The notes under the pieces were generated by a model. That model had not been told where the DNA came from, searched no databases, and saw nothing but the letters and a program-made list of their open reading frames with translations. The translations under genes were made by a program, and so were the position numbers. Below, piece after piece: positions 23,566 to 38,760 of a stretch of DNA of 64,000 nucleotides (the stretch's first letter is position 1; each line of letters starts with the position of its first letter). Origin of the DNA: Trypanosoma brucei (Eukaryota); NCBI GenBank assembly GCA_000002445.1, contig CM000207.1, positions 1,632,001 to 1,696,000 of the forward strand, read 5' to 3'.

Positions 23566-25503
23566 TTATATCCCGCTCATCGCCAAACGGACAGCGACAT
23601 TGGAAAGATGAGGCATGCTCCACATCGAACAAAGCGTTTCCATGGCGCTGAAAGCCCACCCGGTTACCTCCGCGCCTGTGTTAGGTGTCTTGTTGCAATG
23701 TGGAAGAAGCAAAGCAAAGTACAAACGCCCTCCATCCATGTCCTCGTAACTCCGTAGGACGTAAAAGGCGGAGTTACTATCGCCAACAAAGTACATCCTT
23801 CTCCCCGGTGACTTAAGCGCCTGCAGTGCTACAGATTGGATTAACGCCCTTTCCTGCTCAAGGCGCTTTTCCGCATCATCGGATAACCGTCTTTGCGGGA
23901 ACACACAGTTTACCACCCAGTGCTCCAGCTGCTTCATTTCACTATCTTCATTGGCCTGTCCCCCGCCGTTGGAACGTTCCTTGGCTGCAGAAACTGTCAT
24001 GTTAGATGTGATAGCACCAAAATTGTAGTGGTGCCGGTACCATGCACGTTTCCCAGGTCGCCGTGTGCAGTCGCTCACTAAGAGGAAAGTTGTCCCGTTT
24101 CGTTCGCGTGTTATACTCAAAAGCAATTGCACCAAGCACCGGCAGCCCCTCGTTAGCACAAAGTCGCAATCTGATCCCAATACAGGAGATAAACATAAAC
24201 CAAAAGGTGGTGTCAACTTTACTGGTATCTGACGCGGACCGTCGTCGCTACGGCGCCGAAATGAATTACCGCGCCAAGCCTCTAAACCGGCCATTAATAA
24301 GTCATAGGGGCTGGTGAAACGGAGCTGGCGGCCAGAATTCCGAACCGCTGCTGGCGGTCCGCTCGTTGATGCACCGTTTTGACGCGCATTTTTTTCTTTT
24401 TCTCCCTCACTTTTCGCCACACTTTCACCTTCTGGTAAAGGTGTAACGTTTGAGGATGGAATCTGACACTCATTTTCCACTCTGTTCTGCTCATCGATGG
24501 CCGGTGAGCCACCCTTCAATCGATCACGGGACGTGGGCTCTTTCTTATGGGAAAAGGATGTTAAGCAGTTTCTGAATAGAAATGAGAGTCGGCTTTGCAG
24601 ACCCCACACGATGTTCAACATTATCCATATGAATGGACACCGCATATGGAACAGGGCGGGTAACGCAAAAGCTTTAGAGGAAGTAGAGTTCGACTGCAGA
24701 GATCGCGGAAATTTGCAGACCACCTGACTCTCAAAATTGTGGTAATGAGAAAGTTCCGCAAGGCGACTCGGAGTAAGCAAGCCTAATTCCTCCCACAACT
24801 TCTGCTGCTTCGCCATCTCCCGCTGCATCGTTCGGGCCATGTGCACGTAACGAACAGCAACCATTACGTTCACGCACCGAAAGGAGTTCTCCACTATCTC
24901 AGCCACGCACCGCAGGAGCTCGATCCGCACTGCGAGGGTGTGTTGTAAAATATAAAGGAAGTACGTGAAACTCGGTGCTTTCCCCAACTCAATCTCCGCA
25001 AGAGTTCGCTGAGAGCCCTCTTTCGCGTCCTGCATCCACTTCAGGTTGGCCGCAGTGCTTACCTCCGACCAATGTACCGCAAACACGTGGGGCGGGAACT
25101 CCGCACGACCCCCCGATGAATATGTCGCCCCGAATAATCGTAACCATAACCTTCTGAACTCATTGAGATGGTTAGTGTACGATATAGCGGCCACAGCATC
25201 TTCGCCTCGAAGAAAGCTACCATCGGCAGCCTCTAACGACTCACCAAGTTTCTTCCAGTTATCCTGACAAACGTTAAGTGCCCCATCAAATGCCTCGGTA
25301 GACCCACTTAGGGCGCGTGACAGGCCGATAAGGGACGATACGGCTTTGTCGACAATGGCAGGCAAGTAGCGGAGGTGTGACCCTCGTCGCCGAGCCTCCT
25401 GTGGGCCTGCAAGACTTAAAATTGCCTCTTGGGCAACGTCTAGCATTCCAGAGTGAAACAAGCTCATCTTTACATTTTTATGGACATTTACCTTATCGCT
25501 CAT
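23566..25503 (-). CDS. Conserved hypothetical protein (645 aa)
   Basis: Long ORF with ATG at 25501-25503, complex composition, in the unit's orientation. Confidence 0.65.
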   Translation of the reverse strand: MSDKVNVHKNVKMSLFHSGMLDVAQEAILSLAGPQEARRRGSHLRYLPAIVDKAVSSLIGLSRALSGSTEAFDGALNVCQDNWKKLGESLEAADGSFLRGEDAVAAISYTNHLNEFRRLWLRLFGATYSSGGRAEFPPHVFAVHWSEVSTAANLKWMQDAKEGSQRTLAEIELGKAPSFTYFLYILQHTLAVRIELLRCVAEIVENSFRCVNVMVAVRYVHMARTMQREMAKQQKLWEELGLLTPSRLAELSHYHNFESQVVCKFPRSLQSNSTSSKAFALPALFHMRCPFIWIMLNIVWGLQSRLSFLFRNCLTSFSHKKEPTSRDRLKGGSPAIDEQNRVENECQIPSSNVTPLPEGESVAKSEGEKEKNARQNGASTSGPPAAVRNSGRQLRFTSPYDLLMAGLEAWRGNSFRRRSDDGPRQIPVKLTPPFGLCLSPVLGSDCDFVLTRGCRCLVQLLLSITRERNGTTFLLVSDCTRRPGKRAWYRHHYNFGAITSNMTVSAAKERSNGGGQANEDSEMKQLEHWVVNCVFPQRRLSDDAEKRLEQERALIQSVALQALKSPGRRMYFVGDSNSAFYVLRSYEDMDGGRLYFALLLPHCNKTPNTGAEVTGWAFSAMETLCSMWSMPHLSNVAVRLAMSGI

Positions 25504-25739
25504 CAGCTAGTGTATTGCTTCCTTAGCGGCTCAACAAGGATGCAGCGAGCAGGAAGAAACGCGATAAGCACAAGGACCAAAAACCGGCTTATGTTTTGAA
25601 AACCAAAATAACACGTTACGTCGCTCCACCACGCACCCGTGCAATGTCGCGGGCTAGTGCAGGCGAAAGTGCAAAAAGGGGGGAATTTCTCCCATACCTC
25701 GACAGAACCATCATACCTCCCCTCCCGTCAGTTGGTGTC

Positions 25740-26288
25740 TTAACTCTTCCGAGAGGGTCGTGTGCTCACCAGGTTGTCATAGATACTTCGAACCCACGGA
25801 TGCTTAATTTTTTCCCCCGAAACATAAAACGAATCAAAGTTTAACTCAGGATGTGTCTTCTCGTATGCATGCGCCTGCGTCACCATTTCCAAGAGATCAA
25901 TGTCTCTGAGAAAGCGTGCCTCTGGGGTTCCCTGAGTTTCGTACTCTTCCCATAATTCCTGTAATTCCTTTTCCAAAGGGGAGTCATGCGGGAGGAGTCC
26001 TCTAAGGTGCAATATCGCCTCCTTTTCCCTCTTGTGTTTCTCTGCAGCCGGAACACCCATTTTGGGAGAGATGTCACCAATTATACTCTCACCAACATCG
26101 TGACAGAGCGCCATGCGTACAAGCCTGTCCCTATTGAGGGATGAGTCCGGGCACATCATACACAAAAGGGCAGCACGGTACATGTGATCAGAAACGGACT
26201 CGGGCTGATGGACACCGGTTTCCACCCAACCAGTTCGCATCGTTTCTTTCAGCTTCCCAACCGTGTGGAGGAATTCGATCGTGTCCAT
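25740..26288 (-). CDS. HD-domain phosphohydrolase (HDDC2 / YfbR-like 5'-deoxynucleotidase family), 182 aa
   Basis: HD motif block (SVSDHMYRAALLCMM, ALCHDVGESIIGDISP) is typical of HDDC2. The track start is a TTG; the first ATG is at 26286-26288 (MDTIEFLHT...). Confidence 0.8.
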   Translation of the reverse strand: MDTIEFLHTVGKLKETMRTGWVETGVHQPESVSDHMYRAALLCMMCPDSSLNRDRLVRMALCHDVGESIIGDISPKMGVPAAEKHKREKEAILHLRGLLPHDSPLEKELQELWEEYETQGTPEARFLRDIDLLEMVTQAHAYEKTHPELNFDSFYVSGEKIKHPWVRSIYDNLVSTRPSRKS

Positions 26289-26772
26289 CTCTCGTACGGG
26301 AAGTAACCTCAACTACACACATGAAACAAGGAAAAAGAAGAACACCAGTATCCAAAACAAACAATTGCATAGCGAAAGCAAACACCTGAAACTGAGTCAT
26401 AAACCTGCAAGTAATGAAGTAAGTAATGCGGCAGCAGACACAGCACAATCCCACAGGGAAACTGATCGCAAATGGGCCACCACTCAGGACACCGAGCCGA
26501 CGAAGCAGTATTTAGGCGTTACGATCGTAATCCCAACTACGATAACTCACATACTCCCGCCACCGAACGAGGCGGAAATAGTGCCAACGACAACAACAAT
26601 AATAATGGTGATAGATGAGGGAACGAGAGAATAGCAGGCCACAGCGCTTGCACACCAACAGTCAAACTCGTTTTTCTTGTCTTTCTGACTATCGCGATGC
26701 TGAACTCACACGTCAAGGGGTAACCACACATTTTTTAAATCCAGCTTCCTTTGTTTTGCTTACCCAGTGCAA

Positions 26773-26794
26773 ATATATATATATATATATATAT
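26773..26794. repeat. (AT)n microsatellite
   Basis: aaatatatatatatatatatatatat. Confidence 0.85.
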
Positions 26795-26811
26795 CAATAA
26801 TACCGACAACC

Positions 26812-28188
26812 TCATGTGAAGGACACGGGTCTCCCGTGAGAATCGAGGAGAGGCTCGTCATAACCGAGAGCTTTGCGAAGTGTTACACCCTTGAAGGATT
26901 TCATAGACCGCAAAAGTTTTCCATCGGCGCCATCGTACACAACCATCATGCCATCCCCTTCCCTTGCGGTGGGAGGTGCGGCAGCGAATTCAATGTGGAC
27001 GTCGGAATGGAACTCATCCATGAAGGACCACTTTTTGATTCGCTCGAAGATCTCCCGATTTGGTTTACCTCCTTCAATAACGACATCGATTTGGGTGAGC
27101 TTTTCCGAAGCCCCAAGTACACGGCGCCATTGCGGGCGGTCCGTCGTGCGCACGAAAACGTTAATTATGGTCTCGTAGTCACATAGCAAGAGGTGAAGCT
27201 CCAGTTGCGCCACCTGCGGTATCTTTGGGCGTCTCAGCAGCAGCTTTGCCGCTTCCGCAGGCTCCACACGCCTCATTACGAGCTTTCGTGTATCAAACCC
27301 GCAGCGAAGAGTACGATCATAAAGATCCTCTACGACATCACCAGATTTACGTTTTAAATCCGTATTGCGATCTTTGGGGCGCAGACGCTTTTGTTTCGCG
27401 AGCTCCACCATCTCAGGGTACGTAAGGAACTTGCTAGTACGTTGTCCGGGGTTAACCAATATACCGAACTGCGATGATGATAACGCTATGGTGGCGAGCG
27501 CACTTAGGTGGTGAATGGACCCAACCGCGGTGACGGGAAAGGGAAGCTTACAGAACTCCTCGTAGCGTGTACCCATTCGAGGTACTGGAAACCAGCACGA
27601 CTCAAATGCATCTACCCGACCAAAGTAGTGATCAAGATATTCCTCCATTGAGAAAACTGGAAGGACAAGCATCCCGTTCGGCATTTCCATCAGTACGGGA
27701 AGTCGCTTCTCTTCACATTCATCTAGATTAATCCATAACTTCTTTCCCTTGGGGAAGACATCCGTCGCATCCTTCTGCAGTTCACAGCACATCTCTGTGG
27801 TACGAAGGAAAAGATACACTTCCTGCCAACCCTCATGATCAGGCCCCTCATTGTGGACGGTGTCCAGTGCGGCTCTCAATCGGTCCAGTTTCGCGTGATT
27901 CCTCATAAATTGATTGCTCACCATAATTTCTTTTGTCATATGCATCCGCTGTTCCTCTGGAACATAAGGGGGGTCATCTGGAGTAACGTTGTGCGCGTCG
28001 GCGCCGAAGAGTGTCATCGCGTCTTTCAGTCGGTCCGGCACAGGAGGTTGAGCTCGGTAACCTTTATTTGGAATACGACCCTGAAAACGCCGTTGAGACG
28101 CGACGGCGGAATTTATAGTGGTAGCAGCAACTACTTCGCATCGGACGGTGCTGTAAATAGATGAGGTCAGCAGAGCGCACCGGTGCAT
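26812..28188 (-). CDS. Conserved hypothetical protein (458 aa), possibly organellar
   Basis: The track ORF begins at a TTG (28270-28272); the first ATG is at 28186-28188 (MHRCALLTSSIYSTVR...). Basic, hydroxylated N-terminus. Confidence 0.55.
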   Translation of the reverse strand: MHRCALLTSSIYSTVRCEVVAATTINSAVASQRRFQGRIPNKGYRAQPPVPDRLKDAMTLFGADAHNVTPDDPPYVPEEQRMHMTKEIMVSNQFMRNHAKLDRLRAALDTVHNEGPDHEGWQEVYLFLRTTEMCCELQKDATDVFPKGKKLWINLDECEEKRLPVLMEMPNGMLVLPVFSMEEYLDHYFGRVDAFESCWFPVPRMGTRYEEFCKLPFPVTAVGSIHHLSALATIALSSSQFGILVNPGQRTSKFLTYPEMVELAKQKRLRPKDRNTDLKRKSGDVVEDLYDRTLRCGFDTRKLVMRRVEPAEAAKLLLRRPKIPQVAQLELHLLLCDYETIINVFVRTTDRPQWRRVLGASEKLTQIDVVIEGGKPNREIFERIKKWSFMDEFHSDVHIEFAAAPPTAREGDGMMVVYDGADGKLLRSMKSFKGVTLRKALGYDEPLLDSHGRPVSFT

Positions 28189-28598
28189 GTGAACCCGTAC
28201 CACCCCCGCGATCACAGCGTCGAAACGTTTTCCGTTACAGTTGACTCGGGAAGCACACCGCTGCTGGTGCAAAATACCTAAAAGAAAATATTCAAAAAAA
28301 AGAATATGAAATAATGATGTGCAAGCAAATAATCATAGTGAACACCAGTGAGTAAGTGATAAAGAAAAGCAATAAAAGTTGTACGTGCCTTCGCGTAAAG
28401 GGCCAAACTACGATGGAGCGCAACGTGTGGGTCCAGTTTACAGCTGTAAAGAGATTGGAGAGAGAGAATATAGATGGAAAATCACTCTCCGGGCACATGT
28501 TGACTTCCTCTCCGCCTTTTGCGTGCCGTACCGCTCGGTGATCCAAATCTTCACCAAAACACACACGGTGGGTAGTCCTTGGATAATCGACTGGGCTG

Positions 28599-28868
28599 TC
28601 AAGTATTATGCAAATCCCTCTTCCGCGTAGGGTCCACTGCCCGCTCGAGTAGCATGCGCTCTACCCGTACAGGAGATGCATTCTCCACTATTGAAAGATA
28701 TTCCAAATGGTCACGATGCAAAATAATCGTAGCTGCTGTGTCACGGTGCTGATACCGCAACCAGTCATCTTTGGTGCATTCGAGTGTGAGCGTTCCTTCA
28801 TTCTTCAGCAGCGCCTGCTCAATGTGAGGCTGGTAGGTTAGGCCGGGTCGCACAAAAGGATCGCCCAT
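28599..28868 (-). CDS. Small hypothetical protein (89 aa)
   Basis: The track start is a GTG; the first ATG is at 28866-28868 (MGDPFVRPGLTYQ...). Non-repetitive composition, in the unit's orientation. Confidence 0.35.
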   Translation of the reverse strand: MGDPFVRPGLTYQPHIEQALLKNEGTLTLECTKDDWLRYQHRDTAATIILHRDHLEYLSIVENASPVRVERMLLERAVDPTRKRDLHNT

Positions 28869-30252
28869 AGAAACACCCGCGCCCGAGAATGGTGTGGTTA
28901 CGGGAGTATGCAACACTGGATAAATAAATAAATGGATGTAGAAAAGAGAAGGAAATGGTAGTCAACATCATTCCATCACCGAAAGAAGGAATTATAGTTC
29001 GCTACTGCAGGTAGATGTGTTTTCGCTTGACCGTATACGCACACGCTCATATTTACAATATTTGGTTGCAAAACAACGTGGAATAAGCAGCCTATTTCCC
29101 ACAGTGTGAAAACACCGTATACTATACGAAGATATTTACACAATTCTCCCCCCCCCAAAAAAAAAAAACTTGCGCGCAACATACGGCAACAACAATCAGA
29201 AACTAAGCTCACTTTACTCTATGGTTCGGCAACGGGATGCTTAACGAAACACCCGCTCAACGCTTTGGTTTTTACAAAGAAAGGGGGGTATCCTGCCGAC
29301 AAACCACTTGTAGCGGTACACAATAATGGAGTACACCAACAATGGTTCAAGTATTGGTGCTGCACGGAATATCCGCGACACACACACACACACACACACA
29401 TTATTTTATCTAGAGTGTTTGAAACACATCGATTATGTGGATTCTGATCTTTCACACATGTTTGTCCCTTTTTATTTGAACCACCACTCCCTGTGATAAC
29501 ACGCACACAACCTTTACCTTCGTGGGTTCCCCCCCCCTTCAGTCAAATAACAACCGTTGCATATTGCCAACTCCCAGGGGTCTTGTATGGTATCTTCAAA
29601 CCTTGGCACATGTCATCCGCAGCCCGATTCCTCGTCTGCAATCATACACAATCGCAACCACTTCTCCCTACAACAACAGTGCCCACATCAGAATGCCTAT
29701 CATTCCCATCACTGCAAAATTAACTCAAAAACAACACAGTAAAGTTACCAGCCCATGTCGCAAGTTGAAGACGGGCTACATGCGAGAGAGAAAAAAAAAA
29801 CTACGACTTTCGCGGAATCTGCCACCACAAGCGCTGATCCCCCCGCCCCCCCCCCCAATGCTTCCAAAAGCATATTACATATAATTCCCTCCGGGTTGAA
29901 TGCCCGTGTCGCGGCATCTCCGGGTGGGTACATCTGAGCTGCAGCTCACATTCCCGCATGCGAGACGGTTCCACGGTTGAGGTCCATACCTCCGTTCCAA
30001 GTGGAAAGAAATCTCCGCTAAATTCTTCACGTCCACAGCAGCAAGTCCTGTAGACCCAGCTGTAAAGTAACGCTACTCCCTTCACCCAGAAGAGGCCTCC
30101 GGACCCAGCAAACGGACGTCCTGAGGTAAAAGGGATACCCCATCGTCAACCTCCCCATATTAAAAAGTAAAAGTAAAGGATACAATCTTAATGGTGGCCT
30201 AAAACTTTACAAAATACGCATACCGCAACCTCAGGAACATCGGGGCCCGGGC

Positions 30253-31260
30253 TCAACGACGCCTTGAAGAAGACGAGCCCCGAGAGCTTAGCCGGCGACG
30301 CCCTGATACAGTTGTCCGCCCTGAGGGCAGGAGAGGCTCCTTTGCCGCTGCATCCTTTTTCCTGTCGCACTCTTTCTGCCAATTATACAGCCGCCGGACT
30401 AACCGATCCGCCCTTCGGGGCGAAATTGAAAAACCACTAATCACCCTCCTTTCCTCTCTCTGTTGGATAATCTGCCTTCGCAGTTGTTGCCTCACAAGCC
30501 TGCAGCCCCCTTCAAAGCAGAGGCGATCACCCACGTCTGTAAACGGGTCGTCTTTGCGAAGTTTGTCTGCCAACGTCATTGAGTTAGCGGTAAGTGTGGG
30601 ACGAAACGTACAATCAGAATCAGACTTCATCAGTATCACCTGCTCACGCATACGTCTTTTTTCAATGGCCCTGCTTTGTACCTCCTTATAGCATTCATGC
30701 GGCGGCCTGTATCCGCCCGCGCACAGCAGCCTCGACGTTGACGTTATCTTGGGCTTGAATGTTAGTTTATCCTCCTGTTCCTTCAACTTCCTCTCGCTCT
30801 CAGCCCTCTTTTCAGCAATGTGCTTTAGCTGAGCCATCGCAAGAGCGTAAAGCCGCGACCCAGCATTTGTTGCAACAGGTGAAACGCTACGCGAACCGGT
30901 TGAGGGCTCTCCGCCGTGCCCATTTTTTCGCTCCACGTACTTGCTTTGTGCCCTCGCCTTCGAGGCGGTGGTGGGAAGTAACAGATGGCTAAATGCCGCA
31001 GGATCCGAGCGTCTGGCATGTTTCCGTAGTGGTGTGGGTTCCTCTCGCGGACTCGGCGGGGCACGCGCAACCCGCTCCTTACGCAGCGGTGTAGGATTCG
31101 GCACACTGGCCCTCCTAGTTGAAGCACGGCCAAACTTTTGGGTTCCAGAACGAGTTCGAGAGAAGCGACCCCCGTCGCCACCCCATTCATCTATGTAACG
31201 AGTATCATTGTCATCCTTGTAATCGATGGAAACTGAACGACGGTTCACCAAGATACTCAT
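30253..31260 (-). CDS. Hypothetical basic protein (335 aa) with Arg/Ser-rich termini and repeated T-F-K/R-P motifs
   Basis: ATG at 31258-31260. Contains LTFKPKIT and CTFRPTLT motifs and a coiled-coil-like middle. Confidence 0.5.
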   Translation of the reverse strand: MSILVNRRSVSIDYKDDNDTRYIDEWGGDGGRFSRTRSGTQKFGRASTRRASVPNPTPLRKERVARAPPSPREEPTPLRKHARRSDPAAFSHLLLPTTASKARAQSKYVERKNGHGGEPSTGSRSVSPVATNAGSRLYALAMAQLKHIAEKRAESERKLKEQEDKLTFKPKITSTSRLLCAGGYRPPHECYKEVQSRAIEKRRMREQVILMKSDSDCTFRPTLTANSMTLADKLRKDDPFTDVGDRLCFEGGCRLVRQQLRRQIIQQREERRVISGFSISPRRADRLVRRLYNWQKECDRKKDAAAKEPLLPSGRTTVSGRRRLSSRGSSSSRRR

Positions 31261-31729
31261 GGCGCCTCACTCCAGGAAATATCCGTGCAGTAAAGTGGGC
31301 AGAAACCCCTACCTGATATAATCACCAGGTCTGTTGGTGTCCTTTGCAAGGCTCAGACGCATACAAATTGGGGAAGATTGCGTCCGTCGAATGTGAAGCA
31401 AAAGCAGCCAAAAAAAAACAACTCTACAGTCAGAAGCTATAGAAAGTGTAATGCCCTCAAACAATCGTACAGTTAAACGTATGCAACATTTCATATGGTT
31501 GTTGCATACGAGCAACCCCTTAGGAAGGGAGTGATGGCTTTTACTTCTTACTTTTTATTATTCTCTTAACTCAAAGGGAAAGAGAAAATTTATACGTCGG
31601 AAAACACCTCTTTAACACACCTTTCTCCATTCAAATAATGAAACTCTCACTTCGACCGCGCTGGATGCCCACACTACCCTGGTCATTTCTTTTTTTTTTT
31701 CACAACCGCCACTCTTCAATGAGCACATG

Positions 31730-32762
31730 TTAAGCGATGTCATCATCACCCTCATCGCACGACTCCCACTCGGGTTCATCCAAATCCCCCTCCTCATCGC
31801 CGTTGTCATCATTAGCAACCACCTCATCGTCCTCTGGTTGCAAAAGTTCAATGGGATTTGGATGATCCATGTCGGGAATCTGCTCCACAGCCGCGGGACC
31901 ACCCATTTCCTCTACTAAAACACCAATGGCTGTGTCCACCTCCTGCAATGCATCCGCATCACCGCCCGAGAGCGTCAACAAGACACGCGCACGACGGAGT
32001 AGGCGAGCCGAATCGATGTAACGTTGGCGAAGCCGCGCTGCTTCCCCAAGGAGGAACCAAATGTAGGGATTGTTCTCACCCATATGAAGGACCTCAAGCA
32101 AGAAACGATACGCGTCTGGGGGTGATACCTGCATGAGCAGGCGGCCAAGCTCCACCTTTGATTCATACGTTGGCTGGTGCACTTCACTAAGAGAGTGTGT
32201 TAATTCAACCGCGCGTCGAAGTGACTGTAGTGCTTCCTCAGGTCGTGACTGACTGAGCCGCAGTGACGCCTGAAGCTGATGAGCCTCCACGCTTCGAGCG
32301 TTGGATCTCATCGCTTGCTCAACTGCTTCCTCACAACGCTGCTCAGCCCCCGAAGTATCGCACAAATCCGTCAGGAAGAGCTCGGCAATGGCACAGTGAA
32401 CAGTTGATAGCGTTTCCATTAGGGCCTCTCTCTTCTTCTTCTCTACACGCATGCAACTCCGTTTGAATCACGGGAAGGGCACGCTGGTAGTATCCCAGCG
32501 CCTCTTCACCCTCGCAAAGCTGAGCGAGGTTTAGGTACTTCACGTGACCGCGTTGTGGGTCAACTTCAATGGCATGACGCAACATCTCCTTCGCACGGTG
32601 AACATCTTGCACGTGATAAATCATCAAGTCCGCGTACGCCTCGAGAACATCAATGTTGTTTGGCTCTCTTGTCAACGCGACCTCGTAGAATTCTTGTGCA
32701 GCGCCTACATTCCCCACATCCGTTGCGCTCTGGGCCAGAGCTAAGAGGGTCTTGACATCCAT
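31730..32762 (-). pseudogene. TPR-like repeat protein with acidic C-terminus; reading frame broken by an apparent 1-nt indel (or sequencing error) near 32425-32452
   Basis: Two overlapping minus-strand ORFs (32343..32762 and 31730..32452) in different frames. Both parts read as helical TPR-like sequence, and the frames cross inside a GA-rich run (gagaagaagaagagagagg). After the shift the first frame becomes junk and terminates. Confidence 0.5.
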
Positions 32763-33301
32763 GTGTTTGCTATCGCCCTCAAGAGCACCGGTTACCGAAA
32801 AGTAGTGAAAAGACTGCCACTGCTCTCCCCCAAGGGAGCGTGCGCAGCTACACTAAGGCTTCGGGGACGATGTAAGTAGATATATATATGTATATATGTA
32901 ATGACAACGAAAAAAAAAAAGTAGAGAGAGAGAGAGAAGGCAGTGGTTGGTATGCTATAAACCAAATAAAAAGTTTCATAGAGGGGGGAAGGGATGGGCG
33001 TCTATATCAAGAGCGGTATGAAACCGCGTTTACGTCTCGTTTTGCAAAGCGCAGCCCGCCTGCAGCTTTACGTATCTACACACATGCATATCTACACATG
33101 TATATATATACATGTTACATATACGCACCCAGCCTGCTGCATCCTGTGTTAATGCACCACACGCGCGCGCCCGAAGTGATGGTACATGTTACGACTATAC
33201 GCGCACCACAAAAACACTTCCTTCTCTGCATGTGTTTCGGATGCAAACGTTTTATGCTTGGCCCGCCCCTAATACTGCAGCGAAGGCGAAGTTCTGCCTT
33301 G

Positions 33302-34108
33302 TCAGTCGTCACTGTCCAACTGAGCAAACTGTTCTGCCAACAGAAGTCGATCGAATATGTGGAGCAGTTCCTCTTCATAGTTTACCTCGTGGCGCTCGTT
33401 AAGCTCAGCTTCAACCCGTAAAATCCGAAGGTCACGAGTTGTGAGATGGTAAGGTGCGCAGCGCAGTACATCCATATACTGGTCAATTGATAGCAAAGAA
33501 GTATCGGATCGGTCAGCGAAGCGTAAAAGTTTCAAAAATTCCTGCTGCACGTCAATCCTTGAAAGCCCATGTACAGTGGTATCCTCGCGGTTGCTCACCT
33601 GAAAGTTGTGCTCGGTACTCCAAACGAAACGCAACGCTGGAAACGACTCACACGCGAACTCTGCATAGTTCACTGGTTCCTTCTCAACCAGTTGCGTGGC
33701 CGTCAGAACATAGAGAGCTTGGGGAAGAGTTAATCCGTATGATTTGAGTAAAGCCTCCTTAATCGCCTTCACGGGTAGAACCCCATTGTTTTCGCTATCA
33801 TGTTCAACAAACATATCTATATATTGCTGCAACCGCTCCCCATATTCCTCCTCTTCCTCCTCCCGTGTGTTGGGTCGTGATTCGAGGTGTGGCAACGCTG
33901 GTGCCGTCATACGATGCTCTCCGGCAGGTTTTGCGTCCATCTCACGTGCTAGTCGTTTGAAGTAGTTGGCACTCCACTGCAAAATATCTTCCGGTTGCTC
34001 CCGTAGCACCTCGCGGGCATATTCCTTCAATACCCCAGGAAACTCGGGTGGGAGGTGTTGACGCGGTTGATAACGATTGGCTAATGTGCGCTCACGGAAT
34101 GTTTCCAT
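33302..34108 (-). CDS. RIIa (PKA regulatory-subunit dimerisation/docking-like) domain protein with a possible EF-hand (268 aa); likely flagellar
   Basis: N-terminal LPPEFPGVLKEYAREVLREQPEDILQWSANYFKRLA is a classic RIIa fold signature. DMFVEHDSENNGVLPVKAIKEAL resembles an EF-hand loop. The track start is a TTG; the first ATG is at 34106-34108. Confidence 0.6.
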   Translation of the reverse strand: METFRERTLANRYQPRQHLPPEFPGVLKEYAREVLREQPEDILQWSANYFKRLAREMDAKPAGEHRMTAPALPHLESRPNTREEEEEEYGERLQQYIDMFVEHDSENNGVLPVKAIKEALLKSYGLTLPQALYVLTATQLVEKEPVNYAEFACESFPALRFVWSTEHNFQVSNREDTTVHGLSRIDVQQEFLKLLRFADRSDTSLLSIDQYMDVLRCAPYHLTTRDLRILRVEAELNERHEVNYEEELLHIFDRLLLAEQFAQLDSDD

Positions 34109-35130
34109 CGTACCCAAAGTGGAAAAAAGAAAAAGAATAGAAGAATAAAGAAACTATTACTACCTCTTTCCTCCCTTTGCCTTTCTTTTCTTATTTTTTT
34201 TCCACTGGTGTTGAAAAGAACTCGCAGCAAAAGCGTGAAACGCAGGGGTCTCTTGATTCCCTTCGGTGTGGGCCTCCTCCACTACTCTAACTATTATTTA
34301 TTCTTTGAATGGCACCTTTTTTGTACACTCGCTTCTTCTTGATTGCTAGAAATAAACCAAGCGCCAAAGTGTTCTAGTGCGTTGTACTTGGATGGTATCG
34401 CTCTGGATACCACAAGAAAAAAAAAGTGGGAAAGCGTGAGGTGGGTTGGCGAAAAAAATAAAAAAAGAAGAGAAAAAAAACAAAGTGCGGAGAAGTCAAC
34501 TGCGACAAGTGTCGAATGCATAAAGTCGTCAACAGAAAAGAAAAAAACAGAGACAAGGGCAAAGAACTGCGCACGCGCACGCGCACAAGCTGCACAAACA
34601 GGCATGCGTGTAGTGGTAGTAGTAAAACTATACGAGTTAATTGCGGCAATGTCTGCCCCGGAGGCCGTGAACCAACCACCAAATTAGGAGGAAGGAGACG
34701 GAAGAAGAAGAAGAAAAGACAGTGTCGTGGAATTCAGAATTCAGCAAAACACAAACGGGGGGAAAATTAGACTACACTAAAGATAAAAAAAAAGATGTAA
34801 GTGTTTAGCCGCGGCCATGTATACGACTCTTCCCACTGTTGGATAAGGAGGTTGATGTGTAAAGTGGTCTATGGGGTTATTTTTCAGTTGCTATAGGCCT
34901 CTCATCCGCTGCTGTTCCTTTTTTGCTCTTTTACTTCACACGATTTAGGAGCATATGTATACATGCGTCAAAGACTGCTTGCGGCTAATACATTCAAAGA
35001 AATGTCTCATGGTTCAACGAATGATAACCGCAACTCGCAGACCCACACATGAAATGCGACAGCAGACGGAAACGGAAAAAAAAATAAAAAAAAAGAGAGG
35101 GCTATCTGTAATTCTTTACGTACATCACTT

Positions 35131-38100
35131 TTACACGCCACCGTAGAGCATCTGGTTGAGTTCCTCCGAAAGGGGGAATTTTTCCTCATCAAGCACCTCA
35201 CAAACTCCATTACTGCGCACAATAAACTTTCTGTTGTCATCCAGCCACCGTAACTCGTATTTCCCGCCTACAAACACCTGCACAGCCCCGTTGGAGAGCA
35301 TAAAGCCACTCATAGAGTTTTCCATATGGAAGCGGTACCAGCGAACAAATACAAAGGGATCACCATTGCATTGAAATGCTGTTTGTGGTGGGCAATAAAC
35401 AGACATAATACCGGGAGACCGCCGCTGTTTTAACATATGTGTGTCGTGGGTTTCGACCAATTGAAGGACATCGTAGATCTTCTTCTCCTCATTCAATGCT
35501 TGTGCCAACGACAAGATACGCGCCACGTCATTATCTTCCTCGATATCAACACGATCTACGACGTATACGATGTGTTCCAACACTGACAGCACAGCTGAGT
35601 GCACAGAAAAACTATGGTTGAAAAATGTAACACCAGTACGTCCCGGCTGAATATGATATGTGACAGCGACTGAGTCGCCTCCTTCTTCCTCCATAGGATA
35701 AAAGTGGTAGTAGCGTATCCAATCACCGTTAAGCAGCATGTGACGTTCCTCAGGTGTGGGTGGGACACTCCGAGACCCGACAGAGAGACGCTCCATCGGT
35801 TTCCATTCACCACTTAGCGTGCGGGGTATTCCTTCGAACCTCCTTGGCGGCGGTACAACTTCCGATTTACTCATTGACAAACGCTCTGCCTTCCTCCGCG
35901 CCACAATTCCCACTACCTCAGCCGCCGGCTCTCGAGACCTCTTGCGTTCCAGTGCTGGCACCGATGCTCGTCGTTTCGGCCGACCACGCTTCGGACTGAC
36001 TGGTTTCACCTCCAACCGACTTTTTACACCAGTCCTAGCAGCTTCGGTTGGAACACTACGACTGCGACGCCCCTGAGATCTCCCCCTTGGCTTGTTCACT
36101 GTAGCTGCATCATTTAGCCTCTTCACGCACGAGCAACTGTGCCTGCGAAGCGCACCTGAACTGGCAAACTCCCTGCCGCAGGCGTCGCAGGTGTAATTAT
36201 TGGCATACTCCTCGTAACATTTTGGACACATGTCCCTACCGCATTGGCAGTGAAAGAAGTACATACTTGATCCAACTGGTTCGAATTCAAAACAGCAGAC
36301 ATCACATACGAAGCCGTACCTGTACTTCTTGTTTGCGCGACCCATTTCCCTGAATGTATGCGGGTGAGTGGCGGACTTTCGCTGCTCTTTCTCCAACCAC
36401 ACCATATGCTCTCGATCAAATAACTCCGTCACGACAGTGGATAGCCGGGTCACCATGCATGAATGCTCTAAGAGTAAAAGCGACGTTTTGACGTTTCGCA
36501 CAGCATTCTCCATGGTAACAAATCCTGATACAACCTCCGCCCCATTCCCCTTCTTTTTACGGGCCGTAACAGTGCTGCCTCGCCTTGCCCCAACTCCATG
36601 GCTATTGTTCCCTCCCCCTCGTTTGGTATCAACCGTATGTTCAATAGGCGATGTGCTCCGTTGCACAGTGCCATTTGCACTTTTTGGCTTGGGATCTCTT
36701 TTCCCCACGAGATTTATACCCTTCGCTCGATCCACATTGTTCGAACGAGGTTGACGCCCCTGTGGTGAGCGCTGGCCGATATTCAATCCTGTTTTCGTCT
36801 CTTCTTTGCCCTCCGCCTCCAACAATACCAATGAGGCTGCGGCACTGCCTGTAGGGAAATCCGCATTTCCACGGCCTTCCGTTGTGCAAGGAACAGGCGT
36901 TACTGTCCTACTTCTTGCATTCACGCGAGAGTTTGCACGTGACGCTGACGAAGCCGCGGCCCTAGCGGATCTCGACCTGCTCCGTTTCAGGCTCCTCTCT
37001 GTTTCCTCGGCTATAACAGACGAAATCTCACGAATAGGCTTTTTCACTTTAGGGTCGGGCCTTACATCGTAGACTTGATGTATCGGCACACCACCCACCG
37101 ATAACTCCTCCCTAGCGACGAATTTCAAAGACGAACGGTGTCCCTCCTCCGTCTCTTCCTCGTCAGAACCTCTTATTCTGCTTTCTGTGAGGCTTGCGTT
37201 CACATCGGCACTTCGCTGCTCGACAGCACGCAGCAAATGAGACTCATCGTGCGAAAGTAGAAAATCATCCTCCACGCCGAGGAAAGTAGTTACCACCCTT
37301 GGGGTTGCTCTGCGCCTATCGCCCCATTCCGGTCTCATGAGGAGAGCGTTGATATCTGGACGATTTTGTGGATCAGGGACAAGGACGAAGTCCACAAGTC
37401 CCCGTAGCTTCCTGGAGACGCTACAACCACTAGGCCACGACCATTCAGCGGCAGCGACACGACGAAGCAACTCAGCGTTTTCCTTCGGTATTTCGTGGGA
37501 CTGCTTGTCATTCGGAGAGGCGTCGGTGGGTATGGCAGCAGTGTTATGCATATTGGTGTCAGCAGTTCTCTCTGTCATCCGCGGGGCACCTGTGGAGGCA
37601 TACGGATTCCGTTGTGCGAAAATTGAAAAAAGCACCATTCCCACAGACCACACATCTGCTGCCGCACCAACGCTAACTCTCTGATCCCTGTGTAAAGCGT
37701 TATGAGCCATCTCCGGGGCCATGAATGCGATAGTGCCAGCGACTACATCTCCAGGAGGAGGGTTCCACACAGACGTCGCAAGTCCAAAATCTATGAGTTT
37801 TAAGTTACCATCCAAATCGAAGACAAAATTCTGAAGTTTAACATCCCTGTGGATGCAATGTTGTTCATGGACGTACGCCACTGCTTGCACTACTTGGTAT
37901 GCAACGAACAACTTGTCCGCCTCATCTGTTAGACACTTTGACAGAAGGAAGTCATGCAGTGTGTGTGGGAAACACAATTCCATCCCCACAGCCATGAGGT
38001 CCCCGGACTTATTCAATGCACCAAATAAAAACCGTGGCAGCAGGAGTTTTCCTTTTGTGCAGACCCTTCCAAGCACTTCCAGTTCCTGCTTGAGCCGTGT

Positions 38101-38307
38101 AACCTTTCCTGTTGTAATCTTTAATGCCAATCTCGGATATTCATCACAAGAGGCTCTGTAAACGGTGCCAAAAGAACCTTGTCCAATGCGTTCGCACGCC
38201 TCCAGGGATAAACACTTTCCTTGAGATGAATCACGAGAAGGCAATCGCACCCTCACAGCACGCACGCAGCCCTCCTCGTACAATATTTGTTCTACTGTGC
38301 CAATCAT
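35131..38307 (-). CDS. Large Ser/Thr protein kinase (1058 aa) with polo-kinase-like catalytic domain, central C2H2-like zinc finger and two C-terminal polo-box-like repeats
   Basis: Kinase motifs IGQGSFGTVY, LALKI, HRDVKLQNFVF, IDFGLA, FMAPEM. Cys/His cluster YTCDACGREFASSGALRRHSCSC. C-terminal WIRYYHF...VTFFNHSF and VRWYRFHMENSMSGFMLSNGAVQVFV resemble polo-box 1 and 2 (compare Plk1 [24 protein letters not shown]). The track start is a TTG; the first ATG is at 38305-38307. Confidence 0.75.
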   Translation of the reverse strand: MIGTVEQILYEEGCVRAVRVRLPSRDSSQGKCLSLEACERIGQGSFGTVYRASCDEYPRLALKITTGKVTRLKQELEVLGRVCTKGKLLLPRFLFGALNKSGDLMAVGMELCFPHTLHDFLLSKCLTDEADKLFVAYQVVQAVAYVHEQHCIHRDVKLQNFVFDLDGNLKLIDFGLATSVWNPPPGDVVAGTIAFMAPEMAHNALHRDQRVSVGAAADVWSVGMVLFSIFAQRNPYASTGAPRMTERTADTNMHNTAAIPTDASPNDKQSHEIPKENAELLRRVAAAEWSWPSGCSVSRKLRGLVDFVLVPDPQNRPDINALLMRPEWGDRRRATPRVVTTFLGVEDDFLLSHDESHLLRAVEQRSADVNASLTESRIRGSDEEETEEGHRSSLKFVAREELSVGGVPIHQVYDVRPDPKVKKPIREISSVIAEETERSLKRSRSRSARAAASSASRANSRVNARSRTVTPVPCTTEGRGNADFPTGSAAASLVLLEAEGKEETKTGLNIGQRSPQGRQPRSNNVDRAKGINLVGKRDPKPKSANGTVQRSTSPIEHTVDTKRGGGNNSHGVGARRGSTVTARKKKGNGAEVVSGFVTMENAVRNVKTSLLLLEHSCMVTRLSTVVTELFDREHMVWLEKEQRKSATHPHTFREMGRANKKYRYGFVCDVCCFEFEPVGSSMYFFHCQCGRDMCPKCYEEYANNYTCDACGREFASSGALRRHSCSCVKRLNDAATVNKPRGRSQGRRSRSVPTEAARTGVKSRLEVKPVSPKRGRPKRRASVPALERKRSREPAAEVVGIVARRKAERLSMSKSEVVPPPRRFEGIPRTLSGEWKPMERLSVGSRSVPPTPEERHMLLNGDWIRYYHFYPMEEEGGDSVAVTYHIQPGRTGVTFFNHSFSVHSAVLSVLEHIVYVVDRVDIEEDNDVARILSLAQALNEEKKIYDVLQLVETHDTHMLKQRRSPGIMSVYCPPQTAFQCNGDPFVFVRWYRFHMENSMSGFMLSNGAVQVFVGGKYELRWLDDNRKFIVRSNGVCEVLDEEKFPLSEELNQMLYGGV

Positions 38308-38760
38308 ATCCAAAAAATGCAAGTGTACTATCTCCCTTGCGCTTTACTGGTAATATATAATTAATAAATAAAGAACAAGAGGGGGAAAAAAGGAGAGTAA
38401 CCAAAAACAATGTAACAACAACAAAGGAAAGGAAAGGAAATTTACCAATGACTGTGTTATTGTTCCTTCTTTTTTCTTTCTTCTTTTTTTCTTGATCCTT
38501 TTCTTTTTTTTCTTCTCGTGCGTGTGGCAGTGAACACAATTGTTTATTGATGTGAATTGCGAAAAGCAACAACAACAACTTCAGCAGATAGGTGGAAAAC
38601 CGGTCACAAAAGTAGAGTGCAAAGGGGTGAGAAGTTACCCGCTACTAATCCCCGAGCTGTAAAAAAAAAAAAAAGCAACGGAGTATAATTTTCGAAGGAA
38701 AAAAGCACCAGGAGTCACGAAATAAACAAAAATAAAAATATATATATATATGCAACACCA

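What the first reader, a model, noticed from the sequence alone, without database searches (positions are those of the whole stretch)
32400..32470. Frameshift in a TPR-repeat gene inside a GA-rich run
ORF 32343..32762 and ORF 31730..32452 are both TPR-like but overlap in different frames. The shift maps to gagaagaagaagagagagg (32425-32447). After it the first frame reads GPNGNAINCSLCHCRALPDGFVRYFGG and stops, while the second frame continues helical TPR sequence to an acidic C-terminus. The cause could be a single-nucleotide indel making a pseudogene, a strain polymorphism or an assembly error in a homopolymeric/GAA run.
Basis: seen in the sequence. Interest (0 to 1): 0.5.

Follow-up and report, generated by a model that had tools for sequence, protein, structure and literature searches.

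The report
Two-base deletion splits trypanosome Acl4 gene
A two-base gap in this copy of the Trypanosoma brucei genome cuts one conserved ribosome-assembly helper gene (the Acl4 orthologue) into two overlapping reading frames; every related strain and species has the gene whole, so this is an ordinary reference-specific lesion.

Summary
On the minus strand, ORF 32343..32762 (139 aa) and ORF 31730..32452 (240 aa) overlap in different frames, and both are TPR-like. They are two halves of one gene, the T. brucei orthologue of Acl4, the dedicated chaperone of ribosomal protein L4.

T. b. gambiense DAL972, T. equiperdum OVI, T. b. equiperdum IVM-t1 and an independent read-assembled contig all encode one intact 344-aa protein. 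All other kinetoplastids found encode a single protein, mostly 330-365 aa.

The window lacks exactly two bases, GA on the coding strand, between 32443 and 32442. These are the third base of codon 107 and the first base of codon 108, at the start of a conserved RKKKKR patch. So the lesion is a 2-nt deletion, not a single-nucleotide indel.

The window carries no other private change in the coding sequence. The public T. b. brucei TREU927 model (XP_827367, 229 aa) is exactly the 3' ORF read from its second Met.

Nothing suggests programmed recoding or two real genes. I could not decide whether the deletion is a sequencing or cloning error or a real null allele on one haplotype of a heterozygous diploid. 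The finding is ordinary and of low interest.

The parts
31730..32762 (-). Whole disrupted coding region of the T. brucei Acl4 orthologue: 1033 nt here, 1035 nt (344 codons plus stop) in relatives.
   Evidence: In the CDS alignment with L001-L004 the window's only private difference is the missing GA. P0094 is named as the T. brucei Acl4 orthologue in PMC4598080. The best PDB matches by sequence and by fold are Acl4.
32343..32762 (-). 5' ORF, 139 aa: codons 1-107 of Acl4 (TPR helices 1-6), then 32 out-of-frame residues (EEEERGPNGN...YFGG) and a stop.
   Evidence: Residues 1-107 are identical to P0094. It starts at the first AUG of the transcript-like contig L001.
31730..32452 (-). 3' ORF, 240 aa, in the +1 frame: MRVE, then Acl4 residues 109-344 (the remaining TPR helices and a disordered acidic tail).
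   Evidence: The model shows helices up to about residue 307 and pLDDT below 50 for residues 314-344.
32442..32443 (-). Lesion site. Relatives carry GA (TC on the + strand) between these two bases: TGTAG[GA]AGAAGAAGAAG. The missing bases are the third base of codon R107 and the first base of codon K108.
   Evidence: The placement is unambiguous: moving the 2-nt gap by one base does not reproduce the window sequence.
32425..32443 (-). GA-rich run. In intact alleles it encodes the conserved basic patch R-K-K-K-K-R-E at the start of helix 109-131.
   Evidence: The basic patch is kept across most kinetoplastid orthologues.
31730..32419 (-). Public gene model of T. b. brucei TREU927 (XP_827367.1 / EAN77037.1 / Q38DT3, 229 aa, 'hypothetical protein, conserved'): the 3' ORF read from its second Met (METLSTVH...).
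   Evidence: P0095 equals residues 12-240 of the 3' ORF exactly. Ten other ATGs lie upstream of this one in the mRNA-like sequence, so this model is an ORF-calling product and not a likely translation product (inference).
31527..32859 (-). Extent of the monocistronic, transcript-sized contig from another strain (L001, Logan ERR7929162, 1336 nt). It has a 97-nt leader with no ATG before the MDVK start and about 200 nt of 3' flank.
   Evidence: That this contig is an mRNA is inferred from its size and boundaries.

Best explanation
This is one gene, the Trypanosoma brucei orthologue of Acl4. Acl4 is a TPR-solenoid chaperone that holds newly made ribosomal protein L4 by its long internal loop until L4 is built into the pre-60S particle.

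In this sequence, which matches the T. b. brucei TREU927 reference for chromosome 9, the reading frame is broken by a private and very recent 2-bp deletion. The missing bases are GA on the coding strand, between window 32443 and 32442, at the start of an (AAG)4 run coding for a conserved RKKKKR patch.

Reading from the normal start would give a 139-aa stump: three TPRs plus 32 nonsense residues. The public 229-aa model is only the leftover downstream ORF.

The frameshift is not part of how the gene works. It is either an error of the Sanger-era reference or clone, or a null allele on the one haplotype that the reference records in a heterozygous diploid. I rate these two about equally likely. 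In both cases the parasite is expected to make normal full-length Acl4.

Shown here: single-gene identity, the exact lesion, its privacy to this sequence, and Acl4 homology. Inferred: L4 binding, and that the strain keeps an intact copy.
For: - Orthologues are single continuous proteins: 343 aa in T. congolense, 334 in T. vivax, 338 in T. cruzi, 337 in Leishmania, and about 60 more kinetoplastid sequences. The alignment is uninterrupted across the junction.
- Four Trypanozoon DNA sequences read TGTAGGAAGAAGAAGAAGAGAGAGG where the window reads TGTAGAGAAGAAGAAGAGAGAGG. They are DAL972, T. equiperdum OVI, T. b. equiperdum IVM-t1 and Logan ERR7929162.
- Across the five coding sequences there are only five SNP sites. 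Four are third-position and one is non-synonymous. The window has no private substitution, so there is purifying selection and no decay.
- The 120 nt around the site are otherwise identical to an allele that needs no frameshift.
- The TREU927 protein XP_827367 (229 aa) is an exact sub-sequence of the 3' ORF. The 344-aa protein is annotated in gambiense and equiperdum.
- Acl4 identity rests on three results. phmmer against the PDB gives C. thermophilum Acl4 (4ynv, 5tqb, 4ynw) at E = 1e-14, with the aligned stretch (residues 72-245) spanning the junction. An AlphaFold2 model has pLDDT 91.2, and its best Foldseek PDB match is 5tqb_B, Acl4 bound to RpL4, at E = 2e-12 and TM 0.69-0.70 over 334 columns. 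Pillet et al. 2015 name XP_011776831 (= P0094) as the T. brucei Acl4 orthologue.
- Such lesions are ordinary in these references. The DAL972 reference has its own private 1-nt frameshift in the neighbouring RIIa-domain gene.
- Carnes et al. 2015 report 1630 CDS indels between TREU927 Illumina reads and the reference. Of these, 58 are homozygous discrepancies, and the reference holds only one allele at heterozygous loci.
Against: - No reads or independent assembly of TREU927 itself could be examined. It is therefore not shown that an intact copy exists in that strain.
- A 2-nt deletion that is not a simple repeat-unit slip is not the most typical Sanger base-calling error.
- The window's identity with TREU927 is inferred from the exact match of the annotated protein. 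It is not taken from a record name.
- The two homology searches meant to find the frameshifted allele in other datasets returned nothing at all, not even the known intact relatives. They are therefore uninformative.
Confidence: 0.85

Rival explanations
1. Fixed pseudogene. Both alleles of the sequenced strain carry the 2-bp deletion, so this strain has lost Acl4 function and lives without a dedicated L4 chaperone.
For: - The lesion is present in the sequence, and the public annotation of TREU927 is truncated accordingly.
- By established knowledge, yeast acl4 deletion mutants are viable although slow-growing. Pillet et al. 2015 also report that Acl4 has been lost in several eukaryotic lineages.
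Against: - There is a single lesion and no other private change in 1033 nt.
- The gene is under clear purifying selection in the group: 4 of 5 SNP sites are third-position.
- It is conserved across all kinetoplastids sampled.
- The nearly identical haplotype of T. equiperdum OVI is intact, with 2 mismatches in 5.5 kb.
Confidence: 0.1
2. Programmed +1 ribosomal frameshift, or transcriptional slippage in the GA-rich run, restores a full-length protein from this sequence.
For: The two frames overlap by 110 nt in a purine-rich, repetitive stretch. A +1 shift anywhere in that overlap would give a 343-aa protein.
Against: - No orthologue and no sister strain needs a frameshift.
- The flanking sequence is identical to alleles with a plain ORF, so no dedicated signal has evolved.
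- I saw no obvious slippery or stalling motif on reading the overlap. I ran no formal scan.
- A shifted product would replace the conserved basic RKKKK patch with REEEE or VEKKK.
Confidence: 0.02
3. There are two separate functional genes or proteins: an N-terminal 139-aa TPR protein and a C-terminal 229-240-aa TPR protein.
For: Both ORFs are open, and each has TPR-like Pfam hits. The 3' ORF is annotated as a protein in the public record.
Against: - Every orthologue is a single chain.
- The break falls in a 3-residue loop between two helices of one continuous TPR solenoid.
- The 3' ORF has no transcript start of its own and lies behind 10 upstream ATGs.
- The last 32 residues of the 5' ORF are out-of-frame nonsense.
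Confidence: 0.01

Closest known systems
Acl4 (assembly chaperone of RpL4; S. cerevisiae YDR161W, C. thermophilum Acl4; PDB 4YNV, 4YNW, 5TQB)
   Same: - It is an all-helical TPR solenoid of about 340 residues with a disordered acidic C-terminal tail.
- Acl4 is the best PDB match by sequence (E = 1e-14) and by predicted fold (TM about 0.7 over the full length).
- The identical-sequence gambiense protein was listed as the T. brucei Acl4 orthologue by Pillet et al. 2015.
   Different: - Identity to the fungal protein is only 23-25%.
- L4 binding has never been tested in a trypanosome.
- In this window the ORF is broken after codon 107.
Intact Trypanozoon alleles: T. b. gambiense DAL972 XP_011776831/CBH14565, T. 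equiperdum OVI SCU70877, T. b. equiperdum IVM-t1 RHW70515 (all P0094, 344 aa)
   Same: The protein sequence is identical on both sides of the junction. Gene order is the same: kinase, RIIa-domain gene, Acl4, a 335-aa gene, then SF3b10.
   Different: They carry TGTAGGAAGAAG... where the window has TGTAGAGAAG.... The window lacks 2 nt.
T. b. brucei TREU927 XP_827367.1 / Q38DT3 (229 aa, 'hypothetical protein, conserved')
   Same: It is an exact sub-sequence of the window's 3' ORF.
   Different: It is a truncated model that starts at an internal Met (residue 116 of the full protein). It lacks TPRs 1-3.
Private frameshifts in reference assemblies, e.g. the 1-nt deletion in the RIIa-domain gene of the DAL972 reference
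   Same: It is a single small indel in a short purine or A run, private to one Sanger-era reference, in a gene that is intact in the other strains.
   Different: It affects a different gene in a different assembly. There the lesion is a 1-nt deletion, not 2 nt.

Membership tests
Acl4 (dedicated RpL4 chaperone) | Continuous TPR / TPR-like alpha-solenoid covering most of the protein | tested here: met
   Pfam TPR hits in both halves. The AF2 model of the intact allele has pLDDT 91.2 and 17 helices.
Acl4 (dedicated RpL4 chaperone) | Specific sequence and fold similarity to experimentally characterised Acl4, ranking above generic TPR proteins | tested here: met
   In the phmmer PDB search the top three hits are Acl4 at E = 1e-14. 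The next hit is an engineered TPR protein at 1e-08. The top two Foldseek hits are Acl4: 5tqb_B at E = 2.1e-12 and 4ynv_A at 2.3e-10.
Acl4 (dedicated RpL4 chaperone) | Orthology assignment by an independent method | tested here: met
   Pillet et al. 2015 list T. brucei XP_011776831 as an Acl4 orthologue, using OMA groups. XP_011776831 is P0094.
Acl4 (dedicated RpL4 chaperone) | Binds the long internal loop of newly made RpL4 and escorts it to the pre-60S particle | not testable with these tools
   This needs co-purification or a binding assay with T. brucei L4.
Acl4 (dedicated RpL4 chaperone) | Intact ORF able to encode the full solenoid in this window | tested here: not met
   A 2-nt deletion after codon 107 brings a stop 32 codons later.
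Programmed ribosomal frameshift gene | Frameshift requirement conserved in orthologues or sister strains | tested here: not met
   All relatives have a plain ORF.
Programmed ribosomal frameshift gene | Dedicated slippery site and stimulatory element at the shift site | tested here: inconclusive
   None was evident on reading the overlap, but I ran no formal scan. The flanks are identical to non-shifting alleles.
Decaying (unitary) pseudogene | Multiple disabling mutations or relaxed constraint | tested here: not met
   There is one lesion only and no private substitution.
Reference sequencing / cloning error | Independent reads of the same strain disagree with the reference at the site | not testable with these tools
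   No TREU927 reads or second assembly were reachable. Exact look-ups of the 139-aa and 240-aa ORFs found nothing, and the homology searches failed.

The most novel reading that the evidence does not exclude
The deletion is real and homozygous in TREU927. A fully fly-transmissible laboratory reference strain of T. brucei would then live without Acl4, showing that the dedicated L4 chaperone is dispensable in a trypanosome. Less likely still, the GA-rich run would support +1 recoding.
Probability: 0.08. Interest if true: 0.35.

Novelty: already known. Interest (0 to 1): 0.1.

Why it matters
The practical value is annotation hygiene. The widely used TREU927 gene model for this locus (229 aa, 'hypothetical protein, conserved') is a truncated remnant of the T. 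brucei Acl4 orthologue. Anyone using the TREU927 proteome for proteomics, orthology, tagging or RNAi design would therefore miss the first 115 residues and the likely function.

The model should be replaced by the 344-aa protein or flagged as a frameshifted allele. There would be a modest biological point about the dispensability of dedicated ribosomal-protein chaperones only if the lesion proved homozygous in the living strain.

Tried and rejected
- **Search for the frameshifted allele elsewhere.** Two homologous-protein searches with the 139-aa frameshifted ORF, given as a DNA reference and as letters, returned 20 candidates. None scored, not even the 99%-identical P0001.
- **Exact look-ups.** The 139-aa and 240-aa ORFs are not in the protein collection. 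No encoding contig is on record for the 229-aa TREU927 model. No independent copy of the frameshifted allele was therefore found.
- **Literature.** Searches for Q38DT3, XP_827367, EAN77037 and the ERR79291xx run accessions found nothing. The strain behind L001 stays unknown.
- **Comparative genome papers.** The gambiense genome paper does not discuss this locus. The TriTryps pseudogene paper gives no locus-level information in its main text. The CDS indel tables of Carnes et al. 2015 are cut in storage. They would in any case miss the site, which lies 23 nt upstream of the annotated TREU927 CDS.
- **Programmed frameshift and two-gene readings.** I considered both and rejected them; the reasons are given under the rival explanations.
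- **Alternative origin of the lesion.** A loss of one AAG triplet plus a 1-nt insertion would give the same sequence. It is less parsimonious than a single GA deletion.

Full report
**What is in the sequence**

On the minus strand, ORF 32343..32762 (139 aa) starts MDVKTLLALAQ... and ends ...ELHACREEEERGPNGNAINCSLCHCRALPDGFVRYFGG*. ORF 31730..32452 (240 aa) lies in the +1 frame. It reads MRVEKKKREALMETLSTVHC... and ends in an acidic tail...EWESCDEGDDDIA*. The two overlap by 110 nt around the purine-rich string gagaagaagaagagagagg (32443..32425). Both halves give TPR hits in Pfam, and a joined sequence scores above curated cut-offs.

**Organism and locus**

The window has 45.7% G+C. Its genes match Trypanosoma brucei-group sequences at 98.7-99.9% DNA identity. 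All real ORFs from 23.5 to 38.3 kb lie on the minus strand, as expected of a trypanosomatid polycistronic unit. The 229-aa protein annotated in T. b. brucei TREU927 (XP_827367.1 / EAN77037.1 / Q38DT3) is exactly the 3' ORF read from its second Met. I therefore take the window to be, or to be identical with, the TREU927 chromosome 9 reference. This is an inference, because the record itself was not retrievable.

**One gene, not two**

A search with the joined protein found 93 relatives. Sixty-seven are kinetoplastid orthologues, and all are single proteins, mostly 330-365 aa (range 311-406). Examples are T. congolense (343 aa, 81% identity), T. vivax (334), T. grayi (345), T. cruzi (338) and Leishmania (337). 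Their alignment runs straight across the junction. It shows a conserved basic patch (C-R-K-K-K/R-K/M-R/K) exactly where the window changes frame.

The cluster of the best hit holds three sequences:
- an intact 344-aa protein shared by T. b. gambiense DAL972, T. equiperdum OVI and T. b. equiperdum IVM-t1 (P0094);
- a one-residue variant from a read-assembled contig (P0001);
- the truncated TREU927 model (P0095).

**The exact lesion**

DNA of all four relatives reads TGTAGGAAGAAGAAGAAGAGAGAGG. The window reads TGTAGAGAAGAAGAAGAGAGAGG. The window lacks GA on the coding strand (TC on the + strand) between 32443 and 32442. These are the third base of codon R107 and the first base of K108. The placement is unambiguous. 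The net change is -2, which explains the apparent +1 frame change.

A triplet loss plus a 1-nt insertion would give the same string but is less parsimonious.

Across the five coding sequences there are only five variable sites. Four are at third positions and one is non-synonymous, in L001. The window has no private substitution. The gene is under purifying selection in the group, and the broken copy has not begun to decay.

**What the gene is**

phmmer against PDB sequences gives Chaetomium thermophilum Acl4 (4ynv, 5tqb, 4ynw) as the top three hits at E = 1e-14. This is well above generic designed TPR proteins, and the aligned stretch (residues 72-245) spans the junction.

An AlphaFold2 model of the intact allele, built from a 62-sequence alignment, is confident (pLDDT 91.2, pTM 0.84). 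It is one continuous helical solenoid up to about residue 307, followed by a disordered acidic tail. Its best Foldseek matches in the PDB are Acl4 bound to RpL4 (5tqb_B: E = 2.1e-12, TM 0.69/0.70 over 334 columns) and apo Acl4 (4ynv_A).

Pillet et al. 2015 (PMC4598080) explicitly list T. brucei XP_011776831, which is P0094, as an Acl4 orthologue. The expected function is to capture the long internal loop of nascent ribosomal protein L4 and escort it to the pre-60S particle. This is inferred from homology and was not tested here.

**Consequence of the lesion**

The break falls in the three-residue loop between helix 85-105 and helix 109-131. The transcript-sized contig L001 has a 97-nt leader without any ATG, so translation should begin at MDVK (32762). 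In this allele it would give a 139-aa stump with three TPRs and 32 nonsense residues. The annotated 229-aa model starts at the eleventh ATG and lacks TPRs 1-3. It is best seen as an ORF-calling leftover.

**Recoding and split-gene readings**

No relative needs a frameshift. The 120 nt around the site are otherwise identical to an allele with a plain ORF. A shifted product would turn the conserved basic patch into REEEE or VEKKK. I give programmed frameshifting about 2% and two real genes about 1%.

**Real allele or artefact?**

I could not settle this. No TREU927 reads or second TREU927 assembly were reachable. Exact look-ups of the two ORFs found nothing, and the two homology searches for the frameshifted product failed technically. 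Four indirect points bear on the question.

1. The nearly identical haplotype of T. equiperdum OVI is intact (2 mismatches in 5.5 kb). If the deletion is real, it is very recent.
2. In the same 13-kb comparison, the DAL972 reference has its own private 1-nt frameshift in the adjacent RIIa-domain gene. That gene is intact in the window and in T. equiperdum. Private frame-breaking indels are thus commonplace in these Sanger-era references.
3. Carnes et al. 2015 mapped TREU927 Illumina reads to the reference and found 1630 CDS indels. Of these, 58 were homozygous discrepancies. They also note that the reference records only one allele at heterozygous loci. Both reference errors and heterozygous indels therefore exist genome-wide.
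4. A 2-nt deletion that is not a repeat-unit slip is not the most typical base-calling error.

My rough estimate is about 40-45% for a sequencing or cloning error and about 40-45% for a real heterozygous null allele. A real homozygous loss gets about 10%. In the first two cases the parasite still makes full-length Acl4.

**Verdict**

The gene and its family are already known. The lesion is an ordinary reference-specific frameshift, and its main consequence is a misleading truncated gene model in a much-used reference proteome. Interest is low.

Noticed in passing
L006:3139-3944 (T. b. gambiense DAL972), corresponding to window 33302..34117 (-), site near window 33792: The DAL972 reference lacks one A of a short A-run in the RIIa-domain gene next door. 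Its gene span is 806 nt, and the frame breaks after ...FVEHDSE. The window and T. equiperdum encode an intact 268-aa protein. This is a second private frameshift in a conserved gene within the same 13 kb, but in a different reference assembly.
   Followed up: yes
window 32880-32935 and 31688-31702: The (TA)n, (GA)n and T/A homopolymer tracts flanking the gene differ in length between the window and its relatives: one T at 32921, AT at 32890, and a poly-A length change in the 3' flank. This is ordinary microsatellite variation in the intergenic and UTR regions.
   Followed up: partly
window 29856-29878: A 22-nt stretch next to a G-run is present in the window but missing from the T. equiperdum OVI contig. 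That contig also has short N-runs nearby, at positions matching window 31723 and 29187, so this is probably an assembly gap in OVI.
   Followed up: no
window 23566..38322 (-): All substantial ORFs lie on the minus strand, as one polycistronic unit: a kinase of about 1058 aa, the RIIa-domain protein, Acl4, a 335-aa protein, a 458-aa protein, an HD-domain protein and a 645-aa protein. The relatives' gene calls place an 89-aa SF3b10 gene between the 335-aa and 458-aa genes. Gene order is identical in DAL972 and T. equiperdum.
   Followed up: partly
L001, L007, L008 (Logan runs ERR7929162, ERR7929164, ERR7929157): These contigs are each 1.3-1.4 kb, cover a single gene and differ from the window by about 0.5%. 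They look like RNA-seq transcripts of another T. brucei strain. That strain could not be identified from the literature.
   Followed up: partly
tool behaviour: the search for homologous proteins returned no scored hit for the 139-aa ORF, although 107 of its residues are identical to P0001, which the same tool had found earlier. Negative results from that tool for short queries should not be trusted.
   Followed up: no
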